Source: Naegleria gruberi
Lineage: Eukaryota
Direction: 5' to 3' (one strand)
DNA length: 64,000 bases
NCBI GenBank assembly: GCA_000004985.1
Contig: GG738857.1
In this document: one piece after another, positions 17,670 through 63,756 of the stretch
Numbering within the stretch: position 1 is the stretch's first letter
How the letters are laid out: each line of letters opens with the position of its first letter
Program-made: the position numbers and the translations under genes
Notes under the pieces: model-generated
Seen by the model: the letters and a program-made list of their open reading frames with translations, nothing else
The model's database searches: none
Told to the model about the DNA's origin: nothing

Positions 17670-20036
17670 ATGTTGAGAATCCCAAAGAAAATTTTGGCAC
17701 AGACCAATGAAATGCCTTTGGATGAGGCCAACAAGACTATTGAAATTCTCACATCAGCTATCGATGAGATCTACGAAGAAAGAGCTGCTGTTATGGATTA
17801 TCAAAAGTTGTTTGAGTAAGTAGAATTGATCATATTGTATAATAACAATCCGATCATCATCAGTCTTGCATATAAATTAGTTACTAAAAAGTATGGTGAA
17901 AAACTCTATGATAAAGTCAGACAAACTATTTCTAAACATACAAAGGGCGTCTGTAATGACATTAATCAACAAAAGGAAATTACATTCCTTCCACACCTTT
18001 TGACTGTATGGAAAAAGTACAGAAAGGCTGCTTGTACTATTAGAGATTTGCTCTTGTTCTTGGATGAACAATGGGTTGAACGTCAATCAACTCACGACAA
18101 CAAAATTAAGACCGTTTTCGAATTGGGTATCTTTATTTTCAGAGAAGAAGTTTTGATCAAATTGACTGATAGAGTTCAATCTATTATGCTATCGATAATT
18201 AGAAAGGAAAGAGACAATATTGAACCTGCTGACAAATTCTTGCTTCGTTCTCTCACCCAAATGATGGTGGAAATTGACAAGGAAAAGGTTTACATTCCTG
18301 TCTTTGAATCTAAATTCTTAAGTGAATCACATATTTACTACAAAATTGAAGCTGAGAAAATTTTCGATTCTTGTACAGCTGTAGATTATTTGAAGAAGAT
18401 CCAACAACGTTTAAAGGAAGAAACTGATAGAGCTGATCGTTGTTTGGATCCAGAGACGAGGAATAAGATTGAAAATGTTGTTAAAGAAGAATTCATTACA
18501 AGATATAAGGATTCTGTTGTTAATAAGGAAGGTAGTGGTGTTTTGGTCATGTTGAAAGATAAGAAGGAAACTGAATTACGTCTTGTTTATGATGTTTTGG
18601 GTTTGGTTGAAGGTGCTTTAGAACCAACTATTAATATTTATCGTGAATATGTCACTGAACAAGGTTTGGCTATTGTCACAAGTGAAGAAAAGAATAATGA
18701 TTATATTACTTTGGTTACTGAAATTATTCAATTGAGAGTTTACTATGATGAATTACTTTTACGTTCATTCAGTACTAGACAAGGTGCTGCTACTGTTGGT
18801 GGAGGTATCAGTAAGACCAGAAAGACAAATACTTTCATTAGAGATAAGGATTTCTCAAAGGCTACAAAGGATGCTTTTGATAGAGTTGTAAATCAAAACG
18901 AAAAATTCTCTGAATATCTTTCATTATTGTTGGATAAGAAACTCAAGAAGGGTAAACAACAAATTGAAGAAGAACAACTTGATACATTCTTTGATCAAGT
19001 TATTATGATTTTCAGACACGTCAAGGATAAGGATATTTTCGAAAAGTACTACAAGGAACATTTGGCTGTTCGTCTCTTGGAAGAAAGATGTGCATCTGAT
19101 GATGCTGAAAAGTTGTTCTTATCCAAGTTGAAGACTGAATTTGGTGTTCAATTCACAACACGTCTTGAAAATATGTTCAAGGATATCAAGTTGAGTAAGG
19201 ATTTGATGGGTCAATGGAATGAATATAGAACGAGACCACCTATTGATATGAATATTCAAGTTTTGACTCAAGGTTCATGGCCAGGTACTACTTCATACAA
19301 GATTGAATTCTCAGAACAAGATATTAACAAATCTATGAATGTTTTCAATGACTTTTATCAAGGTCAACACAATGGTAGAAAGTTAACTTGGCAATATCAA
19401 TTGGGTAATGCCTCTATTATTATGAATGGTTTTACTCAAAAGTTTGAAATTACTGCTTCAACATTCCAAATGGCTGTTCTCCTCCTTTTCAATGACAATG
19501 AAAAACTCACATACAAGGAAATTGAAACATCAACAAAGATTCCAGCTGCTGAACTCAAGAAGAATCTTATCCAACTTACAAAGCCACTTGATGATGGTGA
19601 ACAATATAAGAAGGTTGCTAAAGTTTTGACTGTCAAGGCTTCTGAAGATCAACAACAATCCACTGCAGAAGGTGATAAGAAGAAATTTACCATTTCAGCA
19701 ACAACAATCTTTGCTACTAACAATTTGTTCAAGTCAAGAAAGTTGAAGATGAATGCCATGCCACCAATGACTAAGCAAACTGAAGAAGGTGCCTCCAAGA
19801 TCAATCAACAAGTTGAAGAAGAACGTAAGATGGTCGTTGATGCTGTCATTGTTCGTATTATGAAGTCTAGAAAGGTCATGACTCACCGTGACTTGGTTTT
19901 GGAAGCTACTTCACAACTTCAACAAAGATTCATGCCTGCTCCTAATTTGATCAAGAAGAGAATTGAAAACTTGATTGAAAGAGAATATTTGGAAAGAGAT
20001 GAAAACGACAGACAAACTTACAAGTATTTGGCTTAA
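17670..20036 (+). CDS. Cullin (Cul3-like) E3 ubiquitin ligase scaffold
   Basis: Exon 1 is 17670..17815 (MLRIPKK...AIDEIYEERAAVMDYQKLF), donor GTAAGT at 17816, acceptor ATCAG at 17862-17863. Exon 2 is 17864..20036. The N-terminus LAYKLVTKKYGEKLYDKVRQ matches the Cul3 helix (AYTMVLHKHGEKLY). Cullin-homology and winged-helix C-terminus (neddylation region VIVRIMKSRKVMTH, ending LIEREYLERDENDRQTYKYLA). Confidence 0.85.
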
Positions 20037-24161: not shown

Positions 24162-27100
24162 CTAAGCACCTGTAGATTGCTCTTCACAACTGTCTGAGTG
24201 TTCTTCTTCTTCGTCTTCGTCATCATCATAAAAGTCACTGTCGTCTTCAACGCCTTCATCAGAGTCTTCTAAAGATTCAGAACCAGCTACAGATTCATTC
24301 GATACATGTTCAGTAATATTTCCTCTTTGAATGTTCTTCTGTTCCTTACTCTTGAATTTGCTTTCCATGAGGGACTTTAATACTTCCTCCTCTGTTAATG
24401 GTTTAAGGAAAGGATGGTCGAGAAGGGATTTCGCAGTACTTCTCTTTTCTGGATCCCACTCTAGACATTTAACCAAAAAGTCTCTGGCTGTCTCTGAAAC
24501 GAAGAAATTTTCCATCTCTTCGTCAGTTATTGCTGGAGACTTTCTAGCTTTGAGAATTTCAACGAAAACATGAATTGGTTCTCTGAGAGGTTGGAATGCT
24601 GGATACGGACATCTTCCTGTAAGTGCTTCCAAAATAACACAACCTGCAGAGAAAATATCAGATGGTTTGCCTTGATTCAAAGATTCCATGACTTCAGGTG
24701 CAATATACATTGGAGTACCGTTGATTTGCTTTGTTTGCTTATCTGATGCAGCATCTGCGTTCATCTTTTTAGATAAACCAAAATCGATCATTTTGATAAC
24801 ACCCCATTGGTTAAGCATGATATTGTAAGGTGAGATATCGCCGTGAACTATATTCTTATCATGCAAGTATGTCAATGCCTCAAATATTTGTTTGGCATAA
24901 ATTCTCACAATATTTTCATGCAAACGACCCATAGCATTCTTTCTGATAACTACATCCAAGGTTTCTCCTTGTACTAATTCCATTACCATACAAATAATAT
25001 CAGGTCTATAAATTGCTGCACAGGATTTATCATCCTTGAACAGAACGTATTTGAATAAATCACTTGCAATAAATTTTACAATGTTAGCATGATCTCCAAT
25101 ATCTTCCAAAATCTTAATTTCATTGATAATCTTGGAAAAGATGACCTCTGGCACCTCTGTGTTGAATGTTTTCTTAAGTGTATCCAGATAACAAATTTTC
25201 ATAGCAAATGATTGTCCTGTTAAAATGTGCATAGCACTGTACACAACTGAAAAGCTACCAGCACCAAGCTGTTTACCAATTTGAATGGTATCAAATAGTT
25301 TTTGTTGTTCTTTAAATGATGGACAATAAAGTGAACTGAAATGGTAAACTCCACGATACCAAAGAGCTTTTTGTTGCTCTTCCATTGACATGGAAGAAAA
25401 AGATGATGATGTAGGTGTTTCGTCAGCTGATAGGGTTTTGCTTAGCTCAGAGTTAGTTACACTTGATTTCCTAGGTGGTTGGACAGGTGTTTCTTCAAAA
25501 TCGTCATGGTCATATCTTTCTGAAGGTGGTGTCTTTTTGCTATTCTCAAACTGTGGTTTAAACATGTCATCTTCAGAAAAACTCTTATGTAGACTTTTCT
25601 TGGATGAGTAGGAAGTTGGAGTTTGATATCCATAAGCTGAGTGGGCATGAGGACTATGAGCAAAGTGTTGGAAGTTTTGATGGGAATGATTGCCATACAG
25701 GTGGTGATGATGGTGATGTCCATGTGAAATTGTTGGGCTCATGTATGTGGTTTGCAAGATGGAATGGGATGGAGAATGACTAACTTGTTGTTGTACAATA
25801 ACAACTTGCTGTTGCATATTATCAACATAGATATTAGTTCTGTCCATTTGTGAGTTTGCAAAATCTGAAGCAATGATAATAAAAGGATCATGTTCTATCA
25901 TTGGAGTACCAATAGAAAATACGCTTCCATCAGAATCATTGGAATAATCCTCTGTATACCTGACGCCTGGATTTACGTGAGCTTCCAGTTCAAAAACAGG
26001 TTGGTCATTATCATCTAGTTCTTCTATCTTGACAGTTTCTTTTTCTCTCTTTTTTGCATTCAGGTATTCCATATAGGCAATTTTCAACTCTTCAGTAGAT
26101 CTGATTGTAATCAAGTCTCCTTCAGCATCTCTGTATTTCAAAACAATAGCATTCACATCAGGAAGATCATCATCATCTACAGGTTGATGTGAGCTAGTAT
26201 ACTTTTGAGAAATGATCTTTCTCTTAAGGTCATCCAAAGTAGTGTTTGCCTCTAGCAAATTTTCAATCGATTCCATGTTATCATCCTGATTATCTGCATG
26301 AGTATAATCGCTAAAGTATTCTCCAGGATGGAATGTATCCATAGTAATATTTGGAATTTGAATAATTGTCGATTGCCTAGCTGTGAGTGGTGTAGCACTG
26401 GATGAAGCAACATTTGACTTTGTAACTATGAATGTCATTGGGATTTCTATTTGAATTTCTTCATTATTCTGCAGAGCATGATTCAACTCGTCTATTCCTC
26501 CATCAATTTCAAAAATATATTCTCCTCCATCTAAAAATGCATCACCAAAATGATATTCATCCAAATCATGAGTTCCACTATTGGTACTTGATGGTTCTGT
26601 GGATGTGTCTGATTGTTCAGAATCAGCTTCAGAAGATATTTCTTCATCTGAGCTGTAGTTGACCTCTTTTGGTGTAATGGTTTCGGTGACTTGCGAAGCA
26701 GGTACTTCTGTACGTTCTACGCTAATTTGTGATTCGCTTTCTAAAGGTGTCTTGTTTTCAGATGTTCCATCATCAGTTTGAGTCGAAACATCAAAAAATC
26801 TCCTCTTGTGACTATTAGCTCTTTCTCTTCTTTTTTTGGCAATAGCATCTGAAACCTGAGACTTGTTCACAACAACTGAGCGTCCATGTCGTAATCTCCT
26901 TTCCTTCTTTTCCTTTTTTTTCTTTTCTTTTGGAGGGGATTTTTCATTCTCTGGATCGTTCCATTTAACCTTAATGGTTTGAACAACTATTGAGGTTCTT
27001 GTTCCATTTTTCTGTAGTGGAAGAATATTTGGAGAAGTTGCAGACATCCTTCTTACTTGATGAATGCTCTCCTTAGGTGAAATGGAATGTTCTGAATGAG

Positions 27101-28646
27101 GTGTACTAGGCTGTAAAACTGCCATAATATTGCGATCTTGATTTGTAATAATAGAATGAGGTTTCTTTGTTCTATAATCACGTTTTTCGTGACTAGAGCT
27201 AGATGAATAATCACCATCTCCACTTGCTACAGAAGTTGATTCAAGACTTGGCAATGTTTCGTCATCATCCTCCACTTCCTCAATTGTGAATCCTTCCTCG
27301 TTATGGACATGAGAAGGTGGTCTAGGGATTGTTGATGAAGGTGTTGATGAAACAACTGTTAGTGTTGTGGTTGTCGTACTAGTTGTTGTTCCACTTCCTC
27401 TCCTAGCTGATGATGGTTCTGAATGCGAGCAAGGATCAAAGAGTTGCTCTGTTACGATTTGCACATGCATTGAAGTTGGTGAAGTTGCAGAGGCACAAGG
27501 ATTATTCAAAGGTGATGCAAAATAAATATTTGTTGCAGAGGAAACACGTTTGTGACCTCTTTTCCTTTGTGGTGGTTGTGTTGTATCAGAGATTGGTGTT
27601 GATGTTTGCGAGGAAGTTCTTATGGAAATTTGATTAAATGTGCCTGATCTTCTAGTATTTAGAGAGTAGCTTCTGGAATTTTTCGAGTCCTGGTTGTGAT
27701 GACCATTTACTACTGGAGGTTGTTGATGAAAATGAGGGTGTTGTTCATTTGGCATGACGAAAGAATTGGAAGGAAGGGATTGAGAAAGAATTTGAACATT
27801 TGTAGATGAAGGAGTGTGGTATGGTTGGGAATAGTGAATTTGATGAATTGTAGGAGAGGCAACACTTTGAAGGTTATAATTGTCTCCACTTCTAGAGTTT
27901 CTATGGTGATGATGGAGGTTTGAGGTATTCGGAGAAGGGTTACCACTAATACTAATATTTAACCTCGATGATGACACTGTTGGTACTGATTCAGAAAAGG
28001 CAAAATCAGCGGAATTTGTTCTTCTGTGATTTGGCCTGGGTGGTCTTTTTGATGTTGTTTGGTTGTTATTGAAAGAACAACGTTGTTTAATTTCCTCGTC
28101 ATCACTACTCGTATCACTATCTATTGTATAACCAGAAGTTTCCTTCTTGAAATGGTTCTTTGGGAGAGAAGGAAACGTTGGTTTTTTGTAGTTAGTTGTT
28201 GCTGATGCTGGTATTTTGTTCCAGTTATCAAAATGATGGAAACTATTGTCATAATTTTCTGCTTCTTCCTCCTCTTCCTCTTGACCATAAATTGGTGAAT
28301 CATGATGATGATGTTTAGGTTGTTGTTGTTGTGGAATGTCAGTGAAAGAAGATGAATCGTGTGGATGAGGAGAAGCCTTTTCATCAGTATCATCCTCTAA
28401 TCCTCCACTAAAATGAAATGAAGAGGCAGAGGAAAGAGGTGAATAGAAGGAAGACTTTGGATTGAGCCTAGTGGGTGTTGTTGTTGATGTTGGTTTAGTA
28501 TTCTCAGTGTTGGTGGTATTTTCATTTGACTGTACAGTATCTTCTTCCGATGTTTGAACCATATCCATATCGAAAAATTCATCATCAGTACTATGTTGAA
28601 GGAATCCCTCTCCTTCAGATCCTTCAAAATCTTCGTAATTATTCAT
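24162..28646 (-). CDS. Large Ser/Thr protein kinase (MEKK/STE-like) with a PB1 domain and long low-complexity regions
   Basis: 1494-aa single ORF. C-terminal kinase domain: LGAGSFSVVYSA, FAMKI, HGDISPYNIML (atypical catalytic loop), DFGLSKK, GTPMYIAPE. PB1-like segment LKRKIISQKYTSSH...IVLKYRDAEGDLITIRSTEELKIAYMEY. poly-H/S/T/N tracts. Confidence 0.8.
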   Translation of the reverse strand: MNNYEDFEGSEGEGFLQHSTDDEFFDMDMVQTSEEDTVQSNENTTNTENTKPTSTTTPTRLNPKSSFYSPLSSASSFHFSGGLEDDTDEKASPHPHDSSSFTDIPQQQQPKHHHHDSPIYGQEEEEEEAENYDNSFHHFDNWNKIPASATTNYKKPTFPSLPKNHFKKETSGYTIDSDTSSDDEEIKQRCSFNNNQTTSKRPPRPNHRRTNSADFAFSESVPTVSSSRLNISISGNPSPNTSNLHHHHRNSRSGDNYNLQSVASPTIHQIHYSQPYHTPSSTNVQILSQSLPSNSFVMPNEQHPHFHQQPPVVNGHHNQDSKNSRSYSLNTRRSGTFNQISIRTSSQTSTPISDTTQPPQRKRGHKRVSSATNIYFASPLNNPCASATSPTSMHVQIVTEQLFDPCSHSEPSSARRGSGTTTSTTTTTLTVVSSTPSSTIPRPPSHVHNEEGFTIEEVEDDDETLPSLESTSVASGDGDYSSSSSHEKRDYRTKKPHSIITNQDRNIMAVLQPSTPHSEHSISPKESIHQVRRMSATSPNILPLQKNGTRTSIVVQTIKVKWNDPENEKSPPKEKKKKEKKERRLRHGRSVVVNKSQVSDAIAKKRRERANSHKRRFFDVSTQTDDGTSENKTPLESESQISVERTEVPASQVTETITPKEVNYSSDEEISSEADSEQSDTSTEPSSTNSGTHDLDEYHFGDAFLDGGEYIFEIDGGIDELNHALQNNEEIQIEIPMTFIVTKSNVASSSATPLTARQSTIIQIPNITMDTFHPGEYFSDYTHADNQDDNMESIENLLEANTTLDDLKRKIISQKYTSSHQPVDDDDLPDVNAIVLKYRDAEGDLITIRSTEELKIAYMEYLNAKKREKETVKIEELDDNDQPVFELEAHVNPGVRYTEDYSNDSDGSVFSIGTPMIEHDPFIIIASDFANSQMDRTNIYVDNMQQQVVIVQQQVSHSPSHSILQTTYMSPTISHGHHHHHHLYGNHSHQNFQHFAHSPHAHSAYGYQTPTSYSSKKSLHKSFSEDDMFKPQFENSKKTPPSERYDHDDFEETPVQPPRKSSVTNSELSKTLSADETPTSSSFSSMSMEEQQKALWYRGVYHFSSLYCPSFKEQQKLFDTIQIGKQLGAGSFSVVYSAMHILTGQSFAMKICYLDTLKKTFNTEVPEVIFSKIINEIKILEDIGDHANIVKFIASDLFKYVLFKDDKSCAAIYRPDIICMVMELVQGETLDVVIRKNAMGRLHENIVRIYAKQIFEALTYLHDKNIVHGDISPYNIMLNQWGVIKMIDFGLSKKMNADAASDKQTKQINGTPMYIAPEVMESLNQGKPSDIFSAGCVILEALTGRCPYPAFQPLREPIHVFVEILKARKSPAITDEEMENFFVSETARDFLVKCLEWDPEKRSTAKSLLDHPFLKPLTEEEVLKSLMESKFKSKEQKNIQRGNITEHVSNESVAGSESLEDSDEGVEDDSDFYDDDEDEEEEHSDSCEEQSTGA

Positions 28647-30624: not shown

Positions 30625-31761
30625 ATGTCATTCTGTGAAGAAGTTCAAGGATTGGTTGTCGATAACGGTTCTGGTATGTGTAAGGCTGGCTTCTCTGGTG
30701 ATGATGCTCCAAGATCAGTTTTCCCATCTATTGTCGGTTATCCAAAGATGCAAAGTACCATGGTTGGTATGGGTGGTAAGGACGCCTATGTTGGTGATGA
30801 AGCTCAATCCAAGAGAGGTATCTTGAAGTTGAAGTACCCAATTGAACACGGTATTGTTACTTGTTGGGAAGACATGGAAAAGATCTGGCATCACACTTTC
30901 TACAATGAATTGAGAGTTTCTCCAGAAGAACACCCAGTTTTGTTGACTGAAGCTCCTCTCAATCCAAAGACTAACAGAGAAAAGATGACCAAGATTATGT
31001 TCGAAACCTTCTCCGTTCCAGCTATGTATGTTGCTATCCAAGCTGTCTTGTCCTTGTATGCTTCTGGTAGAACTACTGGTGTCGTTGTTGACTCTGGTGA
31101 TGGTGTTACTCACACTGTTCCAATCTATGAAGGTTACTCCTTGCCACACGCTGTCCAAAGAATTGATTTGGCTGGTCGTGACTTGACTGAATGGATGGTT
31201 AAGCTCTTGACTGAAAGAGGTTATCAATTCACCACTACTGCTGAAAAGGAAATTGTCAGAGACATTAAGGAAAAGCTCTCCTATGTTGCTCAAGACTTCG
31301 ATGAAGAAATGAAGAACTTCTCCACCAACCCATCTTCCATTGAAAAGGACTACGAACTCCCTGATGGTAACGTCATTGTTGTTGGTAACGAAAGATTCAG
31401 ATGTCCAGAAGCTCTCTTCAACCCAATGCTCATTGGTCTTGAAGCTTCAGGTATCCATGAAACTACTAACAATACTATCAAGAAGTGTGATATTGATATC
31501 AGAAAGGATCTCTTCAACAATATTGTCATGTCTGGTGGTACTACCATGTTCGAAGGTATTCCAGAAAGATTGAAGAAGGAAATGACTGGTTTGGCTCCAG
31601 CTTCTATGTCTGTTAAGGTTGTTGCTCCACCAGAAAGAAAGTACTCTGTCTGGATTGGTGGTTCCATCTTGTCGAGCTTGTCAACCTTCCAACAGATGTG
31701 GGTTACCAAGGAAGAATATGAGGATGCCGGTGAACAAATTGTCCACAGAAAGTGTTTCTAA
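30625..31761 (+). CDS. Actin (divergent paralog)
   Basis: 378-aa single exon aligning end-to-end with actin: [59 protein letters not shown]. Unusual N-terminus [12 protein letters not shown] and many substitutions, at roughly 80% identity to conventional actin. Confidence 0.9.
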
Positions 31762-33553: not shown

Positions 33554-36548
33554 TTACACATCATTTAAAACATCAAAGAATGAAATCTCCTGATTATACG
33601 AGTTTGTTGAAGCTCTTCTATCTGCAGATGGAGAGAGAGGAGTGTTACTTCCACCTAATTCCAAACTAGTATTATTCAAACTCGTTCCAAGAGGAGATGG
33701 GCTAATTAGTGAGCCACCACTTCCAATTGAACCAGCCAAAGTTTGTGCTGTGCTTAATAAATCGGTGGTTGGTGTATTGGCTTTGTCACTTCCAACACTC
33801 ATAGTTCTTCTCAATTCTCTCATTCTAATTTCACCAAAGAGAACACATCCATCAATCGGTTTGGCATATTGATTGAGCATTGGAATACTTCTGCAACCTT
33901 TCTTTAATTGACGAACTGGAAGATAATTTTCACATAAAAATTCATTCGCAGTCTTGTTCTTGTCATAAACTGAAATACGAATTACAGCCAACTCTGGACA
34001 GGTAATGCTAAAGGCAAATCTCTTGTTAAAAACTGGATTGAAACCATTGTCAGTTACACTTTCTGACTTTTCATCATATTCATCTTGTGGAATACCTAAT
34101 ACTTGAAGTCTGACAAATGGATCAACAATTTCTCCCTTATCACTCATACCTGGTTTTGGCAATTGTTCTCCACAAACAACCTTTCCAATAAAATATTCCA
34201 GTAATTTCATTCAATTATTTAAAATATAAAGTTAATAATAAAAATAAAGAATAGAAACTCACTGTAAAAACAACAGATAATACTGGTGAAGTTCCAGCAG
34301 AGAATGGACTTGGAATGCCCTCTAAACGTAAAAAGTCAGGTTTTACAACATAGCCACATTTTCCATTCTCCTCGAATAAAACTTCGTTAAATCTCATATG
34401 TTCATCATAGGTCTGATAATTGAGAGCAACCATTTGACAACCAGTGGCCCAGCCCAACATTGGATTGTAATTACTTGATGAAATTCTGGTACCTCTTGGA
34501 TAGGTTCTAGAGATGTGATTCTTATTATACTTGACAAGGGCTTCTGGATCCTTCTTTAGGAGCTTTTCCAATTTACCTTCAGAGAAGCTGTGCATTTTCC
34601 AACATGGCTCAGCAAACTCTCCATGGAATGAAACTGCACACAATGCAATTATATCTGAGAGACCTTTGGCAACTTTGGACTTTTTCTTTTCCTTCTTTGG
34701 TTTCTCCTTCGAGGAGGATGGAGTAGAGACAGCTTCGTCATCCTCATCGTCTTCCTCCTCATCGTCATCTTCATCAGTTCCACTGCACAATCTCTTACCT
34801 TTGAGAAGGATCTTTCTCCTCAATTCGTGAGGAGATGGATATGTCACAATATCTTCAGGTGGAGGCATGTACAAATCCTCTCCAAATATTTGGACCATAA
34901 TCTTGGCCATCATTTCTTGTTGTGGTTCACTGCAGTGAACTTCCAATGATAAAATTACAGGGTACTCTGACGCTTTGAAGGCATAGTCGTGAATAATTTG
35001 GACTACATCTCTGAATTTAATTTTAGAGACGAGAGTGTGACCATGGAAAATGATTGGTTCATCCTTACCATCCCAACAATCCAATTCGACACAACGACAG
35101 CCAGTCAACAGTACATCTCTATACTTTTCAACAGAGCTTTCTCCTTTCAATTGATGTCCTGTCAGGTAGGTATTGTGAGAAGATGAAATAAAGTAGTGAG
35201 ACAGTGGTAGAGTCATATCTTGATGTAATTTCTTAAATCCTGGTTTCAATATTGAGTTTGCTTGTGAAAATAAATATCTGGTAAAATCATAACTTGTCAA
35301 ACCCAATCCCATTTCTGTTTGAATGGCTCCATGATTTTGCATTAATTTTTCTGCATCTTCAACTGTTTTAATATCTTGATCATCTTGTTGGGAGAGAATA
35401 AACTCAAAGAATTGTTGAGAGAGTACTAATTGGTGTTTCTTTGAATATCTGGCAAAGATTGTACTTTCAATTTCAGGTCTTCTCATCATAGATTTGTAAA
35501 ATTCAACAAATTCTTGGTATTCAATATATCCACTTCCATCTGTATCAAATTGTTTGTATTTTTGTTTCATTGATTTACTTGACATGTCAATATTCAACTT
35601 TTGGCATAATTTTACAACTTCCTAATAATAGCAAAAATTGTTTAATACATTAAATAAAAAAATTGAATGTGAATAAAACTTACCTTGTAATCCAGTTGTC
35701 CATCATTATTCACGTCAGCTTTCATCCAATGTTTTAAAATCAACAACTTGGTTGGATCTCTATCATAACTAATTCTTGATTCTCTAATCAAGTAATTGAG
35801 TAAACAAATATTTTCATTAAATTCATTCAAACTCTCACACATGATATCAATTTGTTCATCCTTGGCACCATAAATAATTGTATATCCATGTTCCAATTGT
35901 GGTGACTCTATTTTTCTACCAAAATAACCTTTTGATTGAGTTTTTGCTGCTTTACCCATCATGTCACTACCACAAATTTGTTTAATATCTCGTAAAAACA
36001 CTATCAATATCAAATCATTAAATTTCAATTATTTTCATCAATATTACACATCATAATAATAAATAGTACGTGTTTGTTTTGATAATAACAGGTTTAAATA
36101 GTTTAGAATATTTCCTACATACCATGTACTTTAGTTTCCTTCTTTTTCGAATCCTTTACCTCTATAAAAGTTTCCTCATCATCCAATACAAAATAATGAT
36201 CCTTGAGTGTGGTAGCTTTCTTCTCAAGGGATGATTTTAACTTTCTTCCCGACTTGAATTCTTGTAAAATCTTGTTAATATAGGCTGGTTCAGCATATTG
36301 ATAGGTTTGTAGTAAATGTTGATCAATGCAAATCTGTTCACACAATTCACTATTATCACTTCCAACGTGGAAGCTCCACCTCGAGGTGAAGATTCATTAT
36401 TGTGATTTGTTGTTGTTATTGTTGTTGTTCTACTATTATTGATGATGGATGAGGTGATGATGGGTGGTTGTAGTGGTGAGGGTGATGAAGATAATGATGA
36501 TGAAGGCAAATCATCCAATGCTCCTGGGCTTGTTGGATAGGATGACAT
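33554..36548 (-). CDS. Phosphoinositide-specific phospholipase C (PH - EF hands - X - Y - C2)
   Basis: Minus-strand exons, 5' to 3':
- a low-complexity N-terminus (about 36548..36370) whose frame differs from the PH exon;
- the PH exon (about 36350..36123; [14 protein letters not shown]...[15 protein letters not shown]), with donor GTATGT;
- exon 35684..36000, with the canonical EF loop [11 protein letters not shown]|E split by intron 35622..35683 (donor GTAAGT);
- exon 34263..35621, with EF loop [12 protein letters not shown] and X-box [12 protein letters not shown]...VELDCWDG;
- the Y-box exon, after intron 34181..34262 (donor GTGAGT);
- the C2 exon 33554..34180. Confidence 0.8.
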
Positions 36549-45623: not shown

Positions 45624-47363
45624 TTAATCTACATTATTGAGCAACTCGTCCATCTTTCTCTTTTTTGATTGTGATTCCTCTTCGTCTTCTGATTCACTCG
45701 AATAATATTCAGCATATTCGCTATCAGAATCAAATACTTCATCAAACTCCTTAGTTTCCTCTCTGTATCGTTTTGGTTTTGGAATATCATATACTTCACT
45801 TCTTGTACCCCAATAATTAAACCAATCTTTGTATTCCCTCTCATCTAGTTCTTTTACAAGTTTTCTGAGTCTCCAATTTTGTTTCAATCTATTTGAGGCA
45901 TACTCAATGCTATAAGAATTATCCTTCACAGCCTCTGTAACAATTTCTAGATCATCCTTGAATGTATCAGATACATGCTGGAGTACAAATCCATTACCTT
46001 TAACAGTCTCCAAAATAAACTCTCTATCACTTTTCAACTCCTCTGGAATCTGCTGGAAAAGTGCTGAGTTTTTTTTGAGTGCATTCAATAGCATGTTTCT
46101 GTCAACATTACCAAAATCTTTCATTTTCTCTAAAATTAATGGAACATTTTCTCGTGATAAAAGTGTGGCCTTCTTAATGTCATCCTCTCTTTCCATAATA
46201 TATTCTATTGCATTGGTGTGAGTGGATGTTGTCATGGATAGAACTTCCCAGTCATTTTGTAAATCAGGATCAGCATACACAATAGCACTTCCATCATTGG
46301 AAACGGCTGCCAAAACAATTTCCTTATCTGCCTGAAGCTCTTCTGAGGCATATTCCAAAGATAGCCCACAATTTCTTACTGCATTCAATACAATTTCACG
46401 ATCATCTCCATAATCTTCCCAAATATAACTCAAAACTTCTCCATTTTCATTTACACATTCCAAAATGAAATCTCTATCCTGATATAGTTCATCACACGAA
46501 TATTGAATTGCATATGGAAAGGTTTTGATAGCTTCCAAAATGATTTCGTTGTCTCGGAGGAATTCATTGTTCACAAATTGAATAGCCTCTCCATTATTCT
46601 TTAGGGCAAGTAAAACCATTTCTCTGGTTTGATTCTCTGCATAAAACAACATTTCCCCACAATGTCTCACCATACGGCAGAAATCTTTTGTGTTCACATA
46701 AAATGGTTGTCGGAACTGCCAGTCATCCAATGGATTCTGACTATATTTTACAGATATTCTTTGCAGTTCGTCACTGGCATCTAGGTCCAGTTCAAAGATA
46801 TTTAGATCTGGATGCTCTTTTGTTAATCGTTTAAGAAAATCCATATTCGTTTGGTAATGCTGACCAGTCGCAAAAACTCCTGAATTCAAAGCCACGTACT
46901 TTCCCACACTTTGACTGATATAATATTCATCATTTTCCAAATAAGGATCATCAATACATGCAATTTCAAATAGCTCTGTACAAGCATGTCCACATGAATC
47001 CACAAATTGATAAGCTGATCCATCGTTCTTAATAGCTTCCTTACAAACATCATAAGTGACCAAACCATGATCTGAAACACAACTCAGAGCATACCCATTT
47101 TGTTTAACAGCTTCTAACAACAATCCATACTCTACAATTTCATCATCATTGAAATATTCCATTGCCATTCCATTGTGTTGTACAGCTTTTAAAGCAAGCT
47201 TCTCACGAAGATCATCGCTAGCCAAGTCAATCAATTCACAACAATACATGCCAGCCTTTAACATGAATTCTTCATCGGAGCCTAATATTTTCATCATTGA
47301 AGCTTCAATAGGAAAGTCAGAACAAACCGATGGATAATATTCCATGAGCCTCATGTTAATCAT
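45624..47363 (-). CDS. DUF4116-like repeat protein (paralog of the gene at the window start) with an acidic/NLS-like tail
   Basis: 579-aa ORF containing about 10 repeats of the type REIVLNAVRNCGLSLEYASEELQADKEIVLAAVSNDGSAIVYA. C-terminus SESEDEEESQSKKRKMDELL. Confidence 0.6.
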   Translation of the reverse strand: MINMRLMEYYPSVCSDFPIEASMMKILGSDEEFMLKAGMYCCELIDLASDDLREKLALKAVQHNGMAMEYFNDDEIVEYGLLLEAVKQNGYALSCVSDHGLVTYDVCKEAIKNDGSAYQFVDSCGHACTELFEIACIDDPYLENDEYYISQSVGKYVALNSGVFATGQHYQTNMDFLKRLTKEHPDLNIFELDLDASDELQRISVKYSQNPLDDWQFRQPFYVNTKDFCRMVRHCGEMLFYAENQTREMVLLALKNNGEAIQFVNNEFLRDNEIILEAIKTFPYAIQYSCDELYQDRDFILECVNENGEVLSYIWEDYGDDREIVLNAVRNCGLSLEYASEELQADKEIVLAAVSNDGSAIVYADPDLQNDWEVLSMTTSTHTNAIEYIMEREDDIKKATLLSRENVPLILEKMKDFGNVDRNMLLNALKKNSALFQQIPEELKSDREFILETVKGNGFVLQHVSDTFKDDLEIVTEAVKDNSYSIEYASNRLKQNWRLRKLVKELDEREYKDWFNYWGTRSEVYDIPKPKRYREETKEFDEVFDSDSEYAEYYSSESEDEEESQSKKRKMDELLNNVD

Positions 47364-58227: not shown

Positions 58228-58935
58228 TGTGTGGCAGTAAAATTATGTGTGTTATCTGATTGTTGTTGTTGTTGTGTGTTGAATGAGTTTTGGCTTTTTT
58301 TATGAATTGTTTTCAAAGCAATGAAACGAATTTTGCTCTTTTATGGAAATTTTAAAAGGAAGGCTTGAACAGCTTTTTTGTGTAGTCCTTTATGGTGTAC
58401 CACTTGCCTAATGTTTGTCAAATATTAAAAATAGTGCTGCAGCAGAGTGGTGTTTTGTATTTCTCCAATTTACCATCGATTTGATTTTTGCAATTTGATT
58501 GAATTTTGGGATTATGAATCTACGGTTTTTAAAAAAGTACAAAATGAATAAAATCGAATATTACTCGAGCGGTTTTTTGTGCACCATTTTAAATAAAAGA
58601 ATCTTCTTTTGGCTGGCTGGAATAGTAAATAATAAAATACTGCTATGGAGCGAAAGAATGGGATATCAGAAATTGTGTAATTTTAGAAACCATTTCCAAG
58701 ATGAGATTCTTTATTTCAAATTGAAGATTATACTAATATATTAAATGTGCACCTAACTACAGCTCAATGTTAATAATTTTAAAAGAGTTTGAAAAACAAA
58801 GATTTCAAAGTGATAAGAATAGAGTTGAACAACAGAAAATTGTAAACAAGTAATTCCACCTCATCATCCTTGTCATCATGGACTCAACGATGTAATAAAA
58901 ATCATGAAAAATTATAGAGATGAACTTTAAAAAAA

Positions 58936-60859
58936 ATGCTCAACAATAGAATCATCCCTACCACTCCCTACATTAATCCAAAACTTAATTATGGTGCTGC
59001 TGTTATAGCAAATTTACATCTTGATCAAGTTGTAGAAGTGAAGGGATCGCATTGGTATTGTGATCCATCCGTTGTAACAAAAGAAAAGATATTCGGACCT
59101 ACAACAACTCTTCAAGTTGGTGGAATGGACGCCATTGATACTGCTTTTGTTAAAAGTGTTCAAAATTCAATGTTTTTCCGATTTGATCTTGATGATGAAT
59201 TTGTAGTCAATAGAAATTATTCGCTAATTATTAATGGAAATACTTTACAAGTTGATAAGGAACTTGTTTGTAAATATTCAAGTGTATTGAAACAATTAAT
59301 TGATTCGTCTTCATCATCGGAAGTTGTGATTGAAGAGAGTCAAGGTGAATATTTACAACATGTATTAACATTTATTCATGAAGGAAAGTTAGGTGTTGAA
59401 TCATCTAAATTCTCCTCTCAACAAGATGCTGGATTGATCAATTTGAAACAATTAATAGAATTGATTAAAATAGCAGACAAGTATCAAGTTGAAAGTTTAT
59501 TAGTAGAAATTGCAAATATTGTTAATGATATGATTGCCATGATTATTATTGAGAAATGTAAAACTATTTCAAATGAGGGCAAGAAGATAGTATTTGAAAA
59601 GTGTTATGAATTTATTGGATTCAATCCAGCAAGTGTTGTTGCTGCTAAAGTTTACAATGACCAACCAATTATCACAAACTTTTTAGAAGATTTCAGGATA
59701 AAGATGCAAGAACTTCAATTAGCTTCAGAAGATATGATTATTGATTATTTATTCTCAGAAAATGGATATGATGTCAATGTTGATATTACAAACAACAAGA
59801 AGACTTTTGCTAAAATGATTGGTGCCCTAAAAACCGATGCATCATTGATTGCCTTTTCTGAATTGGATGCTGAAACATTGATGGGAATTTTGGGTAGCAA
59901 GTTTTTATCAATGAAAACTGAAGTATTATTGAGCGTTCTTGTAGGATGGTATTTAGCTGATACTAGTAGACTTGAAGATGCATGCAAATTTTTATTAGCA
60001 AACGATTGGAGTGATTGCGAAAGAGAAGCTTTTAACCTATTATTTTACAATATTTTCATATTTGGAGCTAAAAAACATGAAAATACTGAACTGTTGGACA
60101 AACTTAGAGATAAGCTCAGCCAAAATATGTTCAAGAAAGAAAATGTTATGGGTGATGAGTGGCATGTTTACAATGAAAATAGACCACCAAGATCAGCTTA
60201 TCGTAATAACTCTGGAGATTTGAGAGTTTTATTGCTTGGATTGGATGCTTCAGGAAAGACCTGCATCTTATACATGATGAAATTAGGAGAAAGAATTACA
60301 ACAGTAAGTAATTAGTCGCTTTGCAAGTTTTTGAATGTTTGTGAAGATTCCAACAATTGGTTTCAATGTGGAAACAGTGAATAGTTGTGGAAAGAATTTA
60401 ACTGTTTGGGATGTTGGTGGCCAAGATAAGATTCGCCCATTGTGGAGACACTATTATTCCAACACCTCAATTGTCATGTTTGTTGTTGATGCTTGTGACA
60501 GAGAAAGATTTGAGGATGCTTGTGATTGCATTCAAAGACTTGGATCAGAAGATGATTTGAAGGATTGTACCATTTTGGTATTTGCAAACAAGATGGATTT
60601 ACCAAATAGTGCCTCTATCAAAGAAATTGTTGAAAAATTAGAATTGAATAGATTGAAAAATCCAAATTGGATGGTTCAAGGTTGCAGTGCAACTCAAAAC
60701 ATTGGTTTAGAGGAGGGTTTCAAACTTGTAATTAAGGCTCACCAATACCAATCCCAGAATACTGCTGTTATTGAACAGTTGACCTCTCAAGAACATGAGA
60801 AGCCACCAAGAACCACTACTCACTTTGGACTCTTTGAACCTAAATTTAACACATTTTAA
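58936..60859 (+). CDS. BTB/POZ-domain protein fused to a C-terminal ARF/ARL-family small GTPase domain
   Basis: Exon 1 is 58936..60303 (BTB-like NYSLIINGNTLQVDKELVCKYSSVLKQLI...YLQHVLTFIHEGKL; P-loop LRVLLLGLDASGKTCILYMMKLGERITT). Intron 60304..60346 (GTAAGT..TGAAG). Exon 2 is 60347..60859 (IPTIGFNVETV, WDVGGQDKIRPLWRHYY, FANKMDL, CSAT). Confidence 0.75.
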
Positions 60860-61533
60860 TTAAAAAAATTATTGTATAATACATTTGGTTTTTTTATCAA
60901 TTATGTTAATTTTCCATAAAAGCTCTATGGATTATCCTACTGAGCTTGTTGTCACTTTCCAAAAATGTGTATTTTCCTTTTTCAGATGAAACCTCAAATT
61001 CTTTCATTCTTAACCAGAGAAAACATTCCAACAAGAAAAAAAAACACAAACATGAAATTCCCATTCAACACAAGTGGTACTCGTTCAACCACAACAACCA
61101 CCACCAACACAACAACCATTGTAAACAATCCAAATACAGTAAGAATGTCAATTGACCAACCGATTAGTGATTTAGATAGAAGAGAAATGATTGGTTTAGA
61201 TGATGTCGAGGATATTCATTCTGCTCTCATCTTTGAAAACATTCCTCGCAGACGTTTCAGTTTCCAAAAATAGAAAATATCATTTTATTTATTGTAAATA
61301 TATCAACCAACTATTAAACTATTATATCAATTACAAAAGAATTTCAAAATTGCATTCCACAAAAAATCTGTTGTAACTAAAATGGTAGCCACCTCTGACT
61401 CAATCTTGCAACCCTAGACCAATAAATTTGTTATATTATTAGAAATGGATCTCATTCCAATTCACAAACTTCACAAGCCTTTGAATTCTTTGAAAAAAAA
61501 GCCTTCAACAAAACCTTTGCATCTACTTTTCAA

Positions 61534-63756
61534 ATGGTAAAGAAAAGAATCAGCAACAAGAATGAAGAGAAGGACGACCTTCTTGATGCGAACTCCGGAG
61601 AGGATGCAATAACTTCGGAATCATCAACTATAGCATCTGCTGTTAGTAGTACAATGCAACAACAACAAGTAGACAATAACAATATGCATCATCGTAAACT
61701 TGCATTGGAGGAGGATGAATCATGCAATACTAATTCTCATCATCATGCTAATGATTATTCCAAGCAAGTAGTAGAAGATTCAGAACAAGAAGGTACTTTG
61801 AATGCACAAGGTGTGAATGATGAGACTGATCATGCACAAGTAGCAATTTCTAATAATCAAATACAGAATGAAGTGACTAGTAATGAAGTGAATATTCCTG
61901 ATGGCATGACTAGAAAGCAAAGAATTATAAATCACTTGAAAATGGGAAAGAATGAGCTGATTCAAGTTTTAAAATTATGTTGGCCTGCTGTTGTGATGAA
62001 TGTTTGTTTTCAATTACTTGGTTTGGAAAGTTTGTCTTTTATTGGACATATTACTTTGGAGGATAATGAAATTCCAGGCATTACTAAGGATAAAGTTGGT
62101 GAATTGTATATGGCAGCAGCATCTTTGGGAAATTCATTCTTTTTCTGTATGTTTATTTAACATTTTCATTTTAATTTTCAACTATTTCTAAAATAGGTCT
62201 TGGATTTGTAATTGTTGGATTAATTCATGGTCAAGATACACTCGTTTCACAGGCGGTTGGTGCTAAAAATTTCATTAGAGCTGGTCACGTTTTAGCACGA
62301 TCCCTACTTACCATTCTATTGTGTTCAATTCCAATTTGTGTAGCATTGTGTTTTGCTAATTATTCTCTCTATTGGATGAATCAGGAAAAAGTTTTGGTTG
62401 ATCTAGTTGGAAATTATTTAAGAATTTTAACACCTGGTATGATTCCATTTGTGGTTTGTGAGGCATTGTCTCTGTATTTAATTGCTCAGAATATTTTAAT
62501 GCCAAATGTCATTATTTGGATTATTTCTGTAATTATTAATTTTGGATTGAATTGGTTATTAGTTTTTGGATTTGGATTTGATTCTCTTGGATTTGTAGGA
62601 GCTCCAGTAGCATTAACCATTACAAGATATATCATGTTGGTCATGTACATTGTATTTATTTATTTCAAAGGTTATATGAAAGAAACATGGAAAGGATTTA
62701 TTGATATTAAGGCTGTTTTTAAATGGGATGGATTTAAGGAATATTTGAAATTGGCTCTTCCAGGTTCTGTCATGTTAGCAGTAAGTAATTATTCTATTCT
62801 CAAAACAAATTTGAAACATATTGATATGAAGGCTGAGGTTTGGGGATTTGAGTTATCAACAATTACTTCCTCCTTCTTAGGACCAACTGCATTGGCATCC
62901 CATAGTATTGTTCTTAATATTTGTGCCTTGACATTTATGGTTCCTTTATCAATCGCTACTGCAACAGCCATCAAAATTGGACAATATATGGGTGGTAGAG
63001 AACCAATCAAAGCCAAATATACATCTTATGCATCAATGGTCTTCTCAGGATTATTCATGTTCTGTTCTGGAACTACATTGGCCATATGTAGAGAGTGGAT
63101 TCCACAAATTTACACACAAGATGCTGATATTATTTACAATGCTTCCATTATCTTCCCATTGTGTGCTCTCTTCCAATTCTTTGATGGTGTTCAAGCAATT
63201 GCTGGAGCTACCATTAGAGGTGTCGGCAAGCAAATTGTTGGTGCTGCCAGTACTCTCATTGCTTATTACGTAAGTTGTTCACACAATACTATTACTAATT
63301 CCTGCAAATTTAAAGATTATTGGTTTACCTATTGGAGCTGTATTAGCCTTTGTTGCTGGTTGGGGACTTGTTGGTATTTGGTCTGGATTAGCCATTGCTC
63401 TCTTCTCTGTATTTGTTGGCATGTTATTGTTCATTCGTTTTAGAATTAATTGGGAGAAGGAAGCAGAGGTTGCCTACAATAGAGCAACAACAAAAACATC
63501 AGAAGGATCTTCATCAGTAGAACTGGAAGCAACAGCAGCAGATGAATCAACAACAAGCAACAAGATGATGACAACACAAGTAGAATTGGAGGAAGGAAGA
63601 GTGGATGAAGAAAACAAGGCTGTTGTTATTGATGGTCAAGCAGAAGATTCTAGTGTATCGCCATCTTTGGAAGAAGATGAGGACTATTCAAGAGTGAATA
63701 GCAGAGTAAATTTACTGCAGAGCACGAGCACAGTTGCGCTGGAGGATGAAGAATAA
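61534..63756 (+). CDS. MATE (multidrug and toxic compound extrusion) family transporter, 4 exons
   Basis: Exons 61534..62146, 62197..62780, 62853..63269 and 63316..63756. Introns: 62147..62196 (GTATGT..AATAG), 62781..62852 (GTAAGT..TTGAG, in-frame 72 nt, so retention is possible) and 63270..63315 (GTAAGT..TAAAG). About 12 TM helices. MATE-type GLIHGQDTLVSQAVGAKNF and ATIRGVGKQIVGAA. Long hydrophilic N- and C-termini. Confidence 0.8.

What the first reader, a model, noticed from the sequence alone, without database searches (positions are those of the whole stretch)
58936..60859. BTB/POZ domain fused in one gene to an ARF-family GTPase
A single spliced gene joins an N-terminal region of about 450 aa with a BTB-like fold to a complete ARF/ARL G-domain. 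The 43-nt intron 60304..60346 splits the GTPase between the P-loop GLDASGKT and switch I (TT|IPTIGFNVETV).

BTB proteins are typical Cul3 substrate adaptors, and a Cul3-like cullin is encoded in this same window (17670..20036). A BTB-ARF chimera is an uncommon architecture; the known ARF-domain fusions are RING/B-box (TRIM23-type). It could couple membrane or GTP state to ubiquitylation.
Basis: partly seen in the sequence, partly recalled or inferred. Interest (0 to 1): 0.6.

Follow-up and report, generated by a model that had tools for sequence, protein, structure and literature searches.

The report
Known Naegleria BTB–Arf1 fusion gene
This is a real two-exon gene joining a BTB scaffold domain to an Arf1-type GTPase, but it is the already annotated Naegleria gruberi protein XP_002679438.1 (NgrArf1c) and belongs to a BTB–Arf family already described for this organism, so it is of modest interest.

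Summary
Exon 1 (58936..60303), a 43-nt GTAAGT…AG intron (60304..60346) and exon 2 (60347..60859) encode a 626-aa protein. It has a BTB domain (aa ~95-200), a BACK-like helical region (aa ~201-402) and a complete Arf1-type G domain (aa 428-586).

The fusion does not depend on the splice, because exon 1 already carries the Arf β1 strand, P-loop and α1 in frame with the BTB part.

My model is identical to XP_002679438.1, "ARF/SAR family small GTPase [Naegleria gruberi NEG-M]". The window is therefore heterolobosean, not amoebozoan. Vargová et al. 2021 list this gene as NgrArf1c. They report BTB–Arf fusions for its paralogs NgrArf1j/k/l and propose a ubiquitin link.

Relatives occur only in Naegleria and Willaertia. 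One Willaertia copy is a single uninterrupted ORF.

Two things are new but small. NgrArf1c also carries the BTB(-BACK) module. Its α3–β4 loop is shortened to a Ser run and lacks the φ-x-E (M-x-E) Cul3-contact motif that 8 of 11 relatives keep.

A Cul3-like cullin does lie at 17670..20036, but a 40-kb distance in a eukaryote is not evidence of partnership.

Verdict: real, correctly read, already known. Cul3-adaptor function is plausible for the family and doubtful for this member.

The parts
58936..60303 (+). Exon 1: start codon to codon 456. Encodes the whole N-terminal module and the first 29 residues of the Arf G domain (β1, P-loop, α1).
   Evidence: ORF list. 1368 nt, phase 0. Identical to XP_002679438.1.
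60304..60346 (+). 43-nt intron, GTAAGTAA…GAAG, with an in-frame TAG at 60313-60315.
   Evidence: The alignment to Arf1 is ungapped across the junction. Paralog NgrArf1k has an intron at the same codon boundary: the unspliced ORF P0121 ends …VVTTVSNL, where the spliced P0133 reads …VVTTIPTIGF. The cullin intron in this window also starts GTAAGTA.
60347..60859 (+). Exon 2: switch I to the C-terminus (170 codons plus TAA).
59047..59187 (+). Pre-BTB conserved segment (aa 38-84) with the family motifs SHWYCD and VQNSMFF. Predicted β-strand 39-42, helix 69-77, strand 79-84. Possibly the N-terminal extension of a long-form, strand-swapped BTB dimer (inference).
   Evidence: H39, Y41, Q76, Y82 and L83 are invariant or nearly so. 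Secondary structure.
59218..59535 (+). BTB/POZ domain (aa ~95-200).
59302..59319 (+). α3–β4 loop, D123-S128 (DSSSSS). It is 4 residues shorter than in relatives and lacks the φ-x-E (M-x-E) Cul3-contact motif.
   Evidence: Alignments. The SPOP EMEESKKN segment aligns to the family consensus SEMiESKsN. The role of the motif is described in PMC3616122.
59536..60141 (+). All-helical region (aa ~201-402), BACK-like. Helices 201-240 (pLDDT ~90) sit in the 3-box position. A low-confidence insert spans 248-286. Helical hairpins span 288-401.
60142..60216 (+). Linker (aa 403-427), low confidence. It contains the semi-conserved D-E-x-W segment (GDEWHVY) where a free Arf has its myristoylated amphipathic helix.
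   Evidence: pLDDT below 50 for aa 403-426. Alignment.
60217..60736 (+). Arf1-type G domain (aa 428-586, interrupted by the intron). G1 is GLDASGKT (60238-60261). Switch I is IPTIGFNVETV. G3 is WDVGGQ, with the catalytic Gln retained. G4 is NKMD. G5 is CSAT. The interswitch has the same length as in ARF1.
60737..60856 (+). C-terminal tail (aa 587-626), predicted disordered, ending …HFGLFEPKFNTF. An [H/Y/I/R]FG motif is shared with other Naegleria paralogs.
   Evidence: pLDDT below 50 for aa 596-626. Tail alignment.

Best explanation
SHOWN. This is the Naegleria gruberi gene for XP_002679438.1 (NgrArf1c). It is a two-exon gene encoding one 626-aa polypeptide. From N to C it has a short conserved N-terminal segment, a BTB domain, a BACK-like helical domain, a flexible linker, an Arf1-type GTPase domain with all nucleotide-binding and switch motifs intact, and a disordered tail. 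It belongs to a small, fast-evolving multigene family found only in Naegleria and Willaertia. Its closest relative is its own paralog NgrArf1k.

INFERRED MECHANISM. The BTB domain makes the protein a homodimer or oligomer, as BTB domains of the SPOP/KLHL type do. The Arf domain has no myristoylated amphipathic helix, so it cannot use the canonical membrane-insertion switch. It instead works as a tethered GTP switch. Its switch I, interswitch and switch II are identical or nearly identical to Arf1. GTP loading would therefore expose an Arf1-like effector surface and move the segment preceding β1, changing how the G domain sits against the BTB-BACK scaffold.

The family consensus keeps a SPOP-like M-x-E Cul3 contact. 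For the family, the likeliest output is a GTP-gated Cul3 substrate receptor, analogous to RhoBTB and TRIM23. NgrArf1c itself has lost that contact. I consider it more likely a dimeric Arf scaffold that binds Cul3 weakly or not at all, or that acts by heterodimerising with Cul3-competent paralogs.
For: Gene and fusion:
- Searches give the model, and searches show exact identity to RefSeq.
- Exon 1 alone runs from the BTB through the P-loop.
- The W. magna homolog P0055 (BTB + Arf, 625 aa) is one uninterrupted ORF.
- The intron position is shared with NgrArf1k.

Domains.

Family restriction: an exhaustive HMMER search of 1.84 billion representatives gave 13 hits at E <= 1e-3. Twelve are the query's own cluster, Naegleria or Willaertia proteins, or unnamed ENA/JGI metagenome ORFs (P0122, P0124, P0127) that align with the family. 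The thirteenth is a spurious repeat protein.

Loss of φ-x-E in this member, with retention in 8 of 11 relatives. Importance of the motif: PMC3616122.

Cul3 is present in the genome.

The published view that BTB–ARF fusions tie ARFs to ubiquitylation is in PMC8358228.
Against: There are no experimental data of any kind. Dimerisation, GTP binding, Cul3 binding and localisation are all inferred.

Cul3 binding also uses α5 and the 3-box, so loss of φ-x-E may weaken binding rather than abolish it.

The BACK assignment rests on low-TM fold matches only (TM about 0.3), and no Pfam BACK hit was found.

The AF2 models are of medium confidence (mean pLDDT 70-72) and were built from only 10-12 sequences.

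No ortholog of this particular paralog was found in N. fowleri or N. lovaniensis, so constraint on its N-terminal half cannot be measured.
Confidence: 0.55

Rival explanations
1. NgrArf1c is a canonical Cul3-RING substrate receptor. The BTB-BACK binds the Cul3-like cullin, and the Arf domain in its GTP form recruits Arf effectors or membrane cargo for ubiquitylation.
For: The BTB is of the SPOP/KLHL/KBTBD class by sequence profile and by fold. High-confidence helices sit in the 3-box position. A Cul3 ortholog exists in the genome, with an H2 helix resembling human Cul3 (Y..LF..AY). RhoBTB and TRIM23 are precedents for a GTPase joined to ubiquitin-ligase modules (PMC8358228).
Against: The α3–β4 loop is 4 residues shorter and reads DSSSSS. 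It has no hydrophobic φ and no Glu at +2 under any gap placement. In KLHL3, changing the motif Glu alone (E85A) severely disrupts Cul3 binding (PMC3616122). Genomic proximity to the cullin (40 kb) carries no weight in a eukaryote.
Confidence: 0.3
2. It is a degenerating, lineage-specific paralog with no specific function. It would be a duplicate of NgrArf1k drifting towards loss, with the Ser-run deletion in the BTB as an early lesion.
For: No close ortholog was found in other Naegleria species. The N-terminal half is only 34% identical to its nearest relative. The BTB barely passes the Pfam threshold. A near-identical strain copy (L001, 99%) shows 7 coding differences, at codon positions 2, 2, 3, 3, 1, 2 and 1, so five fall at first or second positions.
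Against: The 626-codon reading frame is intact and the splice sites are canonical. All five G motifs and both switches are perfectly Arf1-like, with 57% identity to human ARF1 and no gaps. That would not persist without selection, and some paralogs have already lost the catalytic Gln (P0123, P0129). The 5' flank differs about 7% between strains, against 0.4% in coding sequence.
Confidence: 0.1
3. These are two independent genes (a BTB protein ending at 60315 and an Arf starting at 60335), or the gene model is an annotation artefact.
For: A prokaryote-style gene caller on a metagenome contig split it into 459-aa and 174-aa ORFs.
Against: The 459-aa ORF already contains Arf β1, the P-loop and α1. 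The 174-aa ORF starts inside the intron and lacks a P-loop, so neither would be a functional GTPase. The splice restores a gap-free Arf1 alignment. The Willaertia homolog is a single ORF.
Confidence: 0.02

Closest known systems
NgrArf1j/k/l, the BTB–Arf1 paralogs of Naegleria gruberi (Vargová et al. 2021, PMC8358228), and their homologs in N. fowleri, N. lovaniensis and Willaertia magna
   Same: Same architecture and common descent. The conserved N-terminal motifs, BTB, helical region and Arf1-type domain align end to end. NgrArf1k shares the intron position. The gene under study is listed in the same table as NgrArf1c.
   Different: That table lists no extra domain for NgrArf1c. Its BTB is the most divergent of the family and lacks the M-x-E motif that most relatives keep. 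Its G domain is among the most canonical.
RhoBTB1/2/3 (Rho-type GTPase plus two BTB domains; Cul3 adaptors)
   Same: A small GTPase domain is fused in one chain to BTB domain(s). RhoBTB proteins deliver substrates to Cul3 (PMC3812982 and PMC10413933, found).
   Different: The domain order is the opposite (GTPase N-terminal) and the GTPase is Rho rather than Arf. RhoBTB has two BTBs and no BACK, and it evolved independently. Cul3 binding has been demonstrated for RhoBTB but not for this protein.
TRIM23/ARD1 (RING–B-box–coiled coil–Arf)
   Same: A C-terminal Arf1-derived G domain without the amphipathic helix is attached to a ubiquitin-ligase module and an oligomerising element (PMC8358228).
   Different: In TRIM23 the ligase module is a RING E3 itself, not a cullin adaptor. 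TRIM23 is restricted to metazoans and is unrelated in its N-terminal half.
BTB-BACK Cul3 substrate adaptors (SPOP, KLHL3/11, KBTBD2/4, Keap1)
   Same: These are the best sequence-profile and fold matches of the N-terminal module. The BTB is followed by helical hairpins.
   Different: The substrate-binding Kelch or MATH domain is replaced by an Arf GTPase. The φ-x-E contact is missing in this member. BACK is detectable only by fold.
Malawimonas californiana Rab–BTB–BACK–Arf protein (Vargová et al. 2021)
   Same: BTB-BACK precedes a C-terminal Arf domain.
   Different: It has an additional N-terminal Rab domain and comes from a different eukaryotic lineage. Homology of the fusion event was not tested.

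Membership tests
ARF family small GTPase (Arf1 group) | G1-G5 nucleotide-binding motifs (GxxxxGKT, switch I Thr, DxxGQ, NKxD, SA[T/K]). | tested here: met
   GLDASGKT, TTIPTIGFNVE, WDVGGQ, NKMD and CSAT are all present. Pfam Arf scores 7e-57.
ARF family small GTPase (Arf1 group) | Closer to Arf1 than to Arf6, Arl or Sar. | tested here: met
   In the PDB ranking, Arf1 scores 1.5e-59 to 1e-52, Arf6 about 4e-52 and Arl1 about 1e-43. Vargová et al. class it as Arf1 by similarity. No phylogenetic tree was built here.
ARF family small GTPase (Arf1 group) | Interswitch of Arf length, which allows the two-residue register shift. | tested here: met
   The alignment from switch I to switch II against human ARF1 has no gaps. 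The toggle itself cannot be tested here.
ARF family small GTPase (Arf1 group) | N-terminal Gly2 myristoylation and an amphipathic helix for GTP-dependent membrane insertion. | tested here: not met
   The G domain starts at residue 428. The alignment to ARF1 begins at ARF1 residue 17. The preceding 25 residues form a low-confidence linker.
BTB/POZ domain | Sequence-profile match to PF00651. | tested here: met
   21.0 bits against a cut-off of 20.5, which is marginal. The match is backed by 10 of 12 relatives (best 6.6e-10) and by the family profile against the SPOP BTB at 2.6e-10.
BTB/POZ domain | BTB fold. | tested here: met
BACK domain | Helical hairpins after the BTB, including the 3-box. 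| tested here: inconclusive
   There is no Pfam BACK hit. Fold alignments extend 140-330 residues into the BTB-BACK structures of KBTBD2, KLHL11, A55 and SPOP, but with low TM (about 0.3) and high rmsd.
Cul3 substrate adaptor (CRL3 receptor) | φ-x-E motif in the α3–β4 loop that inserts into the Cul3 H1-H2/H5 pocket. | tested here: not met
   The loop reads DSSSSS and is 4 residues shorter. Relatives have S-E-M-x-E-S, aligned to SPOP E-M-E-E-S. The role of the motif is described in PMC3616122.
Cul3 substrate adaptor (CRL3 receptor) | A Cul3 ortholog exists in the same organism. | tested here: met
   The window gene 17670..20036 has Cullin and Nedd8 domains. Its best PDB match is Cul3 at 2.7e-114, against Cul4 at 7e-89 and Cul1 at 8e-86.
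Cul3 substrate adaptor (CRL3 receptor) | Physical binding to Cul3 and substrate ubiquitylation. | not testable with these tools
   This needs co-IP or ITC and ubiquitylation assays.
Heterolobosean BTB–Arf1 family (NgrArf1j/k/l type) | Collinear homology over the whole length, including the family-specific motifs SHWY and QNxxFYL upstream of the BTB. | tested here: met
   The N-terminal half alone hits NgrArf1k at 5.9e-26 and nine further family members (Naegleria, Willaertia, or unnamed ENA/JGI metagenome ORFs that align with the family) at 1e-12 to 6e-4. H39, Y41, Q76, F146, G153, D181 and W338 are invariant or nearly invariant across the alignment.

The most novel reading that the evidence does not exclude
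The Naegleria/Willaertia BTB-BACK–Arf1 proteins are GTP-gated cullin-3 substrate receptors in which an Arf1 effector surface replaces the Kelch or MATH domain. Membrane-traffic effectors would then be ubiquitylated only when the tethered Arf is GTP-loaded. NgrArf1c, which has lost the φ-x-E contact, would be a natural Cul3-blind subunit that modulates the ligase by heterodimerising with Cul3-competent paralogs.
Probability: 0.2. Interest if true: 0.6.

Novelty: already known. Interest (0 to 1): 0.22.

Why it matters
The finding matters little as a discovery. The gene model is in RefSeq and UniProt (XP_002679438.1, D2V8J2). The gene is catalogued as NgrArf1c, and BTB–Arf fusions in N. gruberi, with their suggested link to ubiquitylation, were published in 2021.

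The useful residue is twofold. First, NgrArf1c should be added to the BTB–Arf group, since its BTB was not listed. Second, within this family the Cul3-contact motif is variably retained. This gives a natural comparison (NgrArf1k against NgrArf1c) for testing whether these proteins really are Cul3 adaptors.

No member of the family has been studied experimentally. The biological question of what a non-myristoylated, BTB-tethered Arf1 does is therefore still open, and it is mildly interesting for the evolution of GTPase–ubiquitin coupling.

Tried and rejected
1. The word-indexed homolog search with the N-terminal 427 aa found only the query's own cluster. The exhaustive representative search was needed to find the family.
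2. A profile search with the N-terminal family alignment returned only 2 proteins.
3. The full-length search was dominated by tandem or mis-fused Arf models from plants and animals. Only lengths and Pfam columns picked out the Willaertia and Naegleria fusions.
5. No Pfam BACK hit appeared even at E <= 1.
6. GTAAGTA is not enriched in the window (5 observed against 3.9 expected). The splice signal alone is therefore not evidence; the frame and alignment restoration is.
7. The comparison with the 99%-identical metagenome contig L001 gave too few coding differences (7) for a selection test.
8. The DNA of the N. lovaniensis locus L003 was not delivered to the scripting area, so its intron positions were not mapped.
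9. P0126, a repeat protein with 8 short matches to aa 212-257, was judged spurious.
10. Synteny with the Willaertia and N. lovaniensis loci was looked at, and no shared neighbours were seen.
11. P0067 was considered as the ortholog, because it has the same YSSVL motif and a deviant loop. It was rejected because its N-terminal similarity is weak (E 4e-5).

Full report
**What is in the sequence**

Positions 58936..60315 hold a 459-aa ORF, and 60335..60859 hold a 174-aa ORF on the same strand. Removing 60304..60346 joins the two. These 43 nt read GTAAGTAATTAG…TTTGTGAAG, with an in-frame TAG at 60313-60315. The join links 456 codons to 170 codons in phase 0 and gives a 626-aa protein.

The junction falls between …KLGERITT and IPTIGFNVETV.

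The join is not a matter of taste, for four reasons:
- The spliced protein aligns to Arf1 crystal structures without a gap across the junction (3lrp E 1.5e-59).
- Exon 1 by itself already runs from the BTB region through Arf β1, the P-loop GLDASGKT and α1. The fusion therefore does not depend on the intron at all.
- The downstream ORF starts at an ATG inside the intron and lacks a P-loop.
- The paralog NgrArf1k has an intron at the same codon boundary. The unspliced metagenomic ORF P0121 ends …VVTTVSNL, where the RefSeq protein P0133 continues …VVTTIPTIGF.

A second intron in the window, in the cullin gene, also begins GTAAGTA. That heptamer is not itself enriched in the window (5 observed against 3.9 expected).

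**Identity of the gene and organism**

An exact-sequence look-up put the exon-1 ORF in a cluster whose 626-aa member is EFC46694.1 / XP_002679438.1 / UniProt D2V8J2, [quoted passage not shown]. That protein is identical to my spliced model. The window is therefore Naegleria gruberi (Heterolobosea, Discoba), not an amoebozoan.

A metagenome contig (L001, ENA ERZ929261) is 99% identical to 58705..60914. Its differences are concentrated in the 5' flank.

**Domains**

- *Arf.* Pfam gives Arf PF00025 at E 7e-57 over aa 426-586.
- *BTB.* PF00651 scores only 21.0 bits against a 20.5-bit cut-off (aa 97-193), so the BTB call needed support, and it got it. BTB is hit in 10 of 12 relatives, best 6.6e-10. 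A profile of the family's N-terminal halves hits the SPOP BTB at 2.6e-10, then KBTBD2, KBTBD4, KLHL11, KLHL3 and Keap1.
- *Models.* AlphaFold2 models had mean pLDDT 70 for the full length and 72 for the N-terminal half, with pLDDT 80-95 across aa 95-245.
- *BACK-like region.* The helices after the BTB (aa 201-402) align with the BACK/3-box parts of KBTBD2, KLHL11, A55 and SPOP over 140-330 positions, but loosely. No Pfam BACK hit exists. "BACK-like" is therefore a fold-level statement only.
- *What is missing.* The N-terminal myristoylated amphipathic helix is absent. The G domain begins at residue 428 behind a low-confidence linker.

**The family**

An exhaustive HMMER search of 1.84 billion representative proteins with the N-terminal 427 aa returned 13 hits at E <= 1e-3. 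One is a spurious repeat protein. The rest are the query itself, N. gruberi NgrArf1k (5.9e-26), proteins of N. lovaniensis, N. fowleri and Willaertia magna, and unnamed ENA/JGI metagenome ORFs (P0122, P0124, P0127) that align with the family.

All the hits share the layout SHWY motif, QNxxFYL motif, BTB, helical region, Arf.

The W. magna gene for P0055 (625 aa, Pfam BTB + Arf) is one uninterrupted 1878-nt ORF. This is splice-independent proof that the fusion is a genuine, inherited architecture.

**What was already published**

Vargová et al. 2021 (Genome Biol Evol 13:evab157, PMC8358228) catalogue XP_002679438.1 as NgrArf1c, classed as Arf1 by similarity, with no extra domain noted. They list the paralogs NgrArf1j, k and l with "BTB". 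[quoted passage not shown] They also describe a Malawimonas Rab–BTB–BACK–Arf protein.

That premise is out of date. The proposed function has already been suggested for this very family.

**The Cul3 question**

The cullin at 17670..20036 is real. Pfam Cullin scores 6e-148, and a neddylation domain is present. It is closest to Cul3 (2.7e-114, against Cul4 7e-89 and Cul1 8e-86). It has a short GTAAGTA intron after codon ~47 and an H2 helix resembling that of human Cul3. It lies 40 kb and roughly 20 genes away. The intervening genes include actin, PI-PLC, a kinase and DUF4116 proteins. In a eukaryote this shows only that the organism has a Cul3.

The BTB itself is more informative. In SPOP, KLHL3 and KLHL11 the φ-x-E motif in the α3–β4 loop buries the most surface on Cul3, and KLHL3 E85A severely disrupts binding (PMC3616122). 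The family consensus here, S-E-M-x-E-S-K-x-N, aligns residue for residue with SPOP E-H-E-M-E-E-S-K-K-N. Eight of eleven distinct relatives keep M-x-E.

NgrArf1c does not. Between the conserved LKQLI and EVVIEE it has only DSSSSS, four residues fewer. There is no hydrophobic residue and no Glu at +2 under any gap placement. P0067 and P0122 are also deviant.

A defining feature of Cul3 adaptors was therefore tested and not met for this member, although it is met for most of its relatives.

**Most likely mechanism (inferred)**

The protein is a BTB-dimerised scaffold carrying a tethered Arf1-type GTP switch. Without the amphipathic helix, GTP loading cannot drive canonical membrane insertion. It should instead expose an Arf1-like effector surface and displace the segment preceding β1, which carries a semi-conserved D-E-x-W stretch. 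That would alter the position of the G domain relative to the BTB-BACK.

For the family as a whole, a GTP-gated CRL3 substrate receptor is the best guess. It is analogous in logic to RhoBTB (PMC3812982, PMC10413933) and TRIM23.

For NgrArf1c I rate Cul3-impaired function as more likely than canonical adaptor function. It could be a dimeric Arf scaffold, or a Cul3-blind partner in heterodimers.

Degeneration is unlikely, given the perfectly conserved G motifs. Other paralogs have already lost the catalytic Gln (P0123, P0129).

None of this has experimental support.

**Verdict**

The finding is already known. The small new points are that NgrArf1c belongs with the BTB–Arf group and that it lacks the φ-x-E motif.

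Noticed in passing
window 17670..20036 (+): A Cul3-like cullin gene. Pfam Cullin scores 6e-148 and a Nedd8 domain is present. The best PDB match is Cul3 at 2.7e-114. It has a short intron starting GTAAGTAG at 17816, after about 47 codons. The H2 helix (…DYQKLFE|…LAYKLV) resembles the BTB-binding helix of human Cul3.
   Followed up: partly
window 4112..8542 (+): A 1476-aa ORF combines a coronin-type WD40_4, a PH domain, two RRM domains, three gelsolin repeats and a villin headpiece. It looks like Dictyostelium villidin (from memory) but has RNA-recognition motifs inserted. That is an unusual actin-binding and RNA-binding combination.
   Followed up: no
window 35..913 (+) and 45624..47363 (-): Two proteins are built from DUF4116 repeats (E 9e-41 and 1e-84). 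Their function is unknown.
   Followed up: no
L001 (ENA ERZ929261, PRJEB11402 contig k127_449970) = window 58705..60914: A metagenome contig is 99% identical to this N. gruberi locus. The differences are 16 positions (substitutions and indels) in the 231-nt 5' flank, 7 in 1881 coding nt, 0 in the intron and 1 in the 3' flank. This points to a closely related Naegleria strain in that sample. Its prokaryote-style gene calls split the gene at the intron.
   Followed up: partly
window 60737..60856 (aa 587-626) and the tails of P0133, P0067, P0123 and P0129: The C-terminal tails of the Naegleria BTB–Arf paralogs share a short [H/Y/I/R]-F-G motif (HFGLFE, HFGTMTF, YFGSLSS, IFGSISS, RFGEIAH) in otherwise unalignable, disordered sequence. 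The Willaertia copies end right after the G domain.
   Followed up: no
family members P0122, P0124 and P0127 (metagenomic ORFs): Several paralogs have a different intron position in the Arf domain, just before WDVGG. The unspliced ORFs end …TLTVVSC, …ITLVGT and …IGLVS. Intron positions therefore vary within the family.
   Followed up: no
window 30625..31761 (+), 34215..35597 (-), 24162..28646 (-), 10196..13843 (+), 62319..63443 (+): The neighbouring genes are actin (4e-140), PI-PLC with EF hands, a 1493-aa protein kinase with a possible PB1 domain, an ATG17-like coiled-coil protein and a MatE transporter with a probable GTAAGTA intron at 62781. No other BTB, RING or F-box gene was seen among the 20 ORFs scanned.
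   Followed up: partly
window 60965..61273 (+): A small ORF immediately downstream (102 aa) contains a Thr/Asn-rich run (TTTTTTNTTTIVNN). It was not examined.
   Followed up: no
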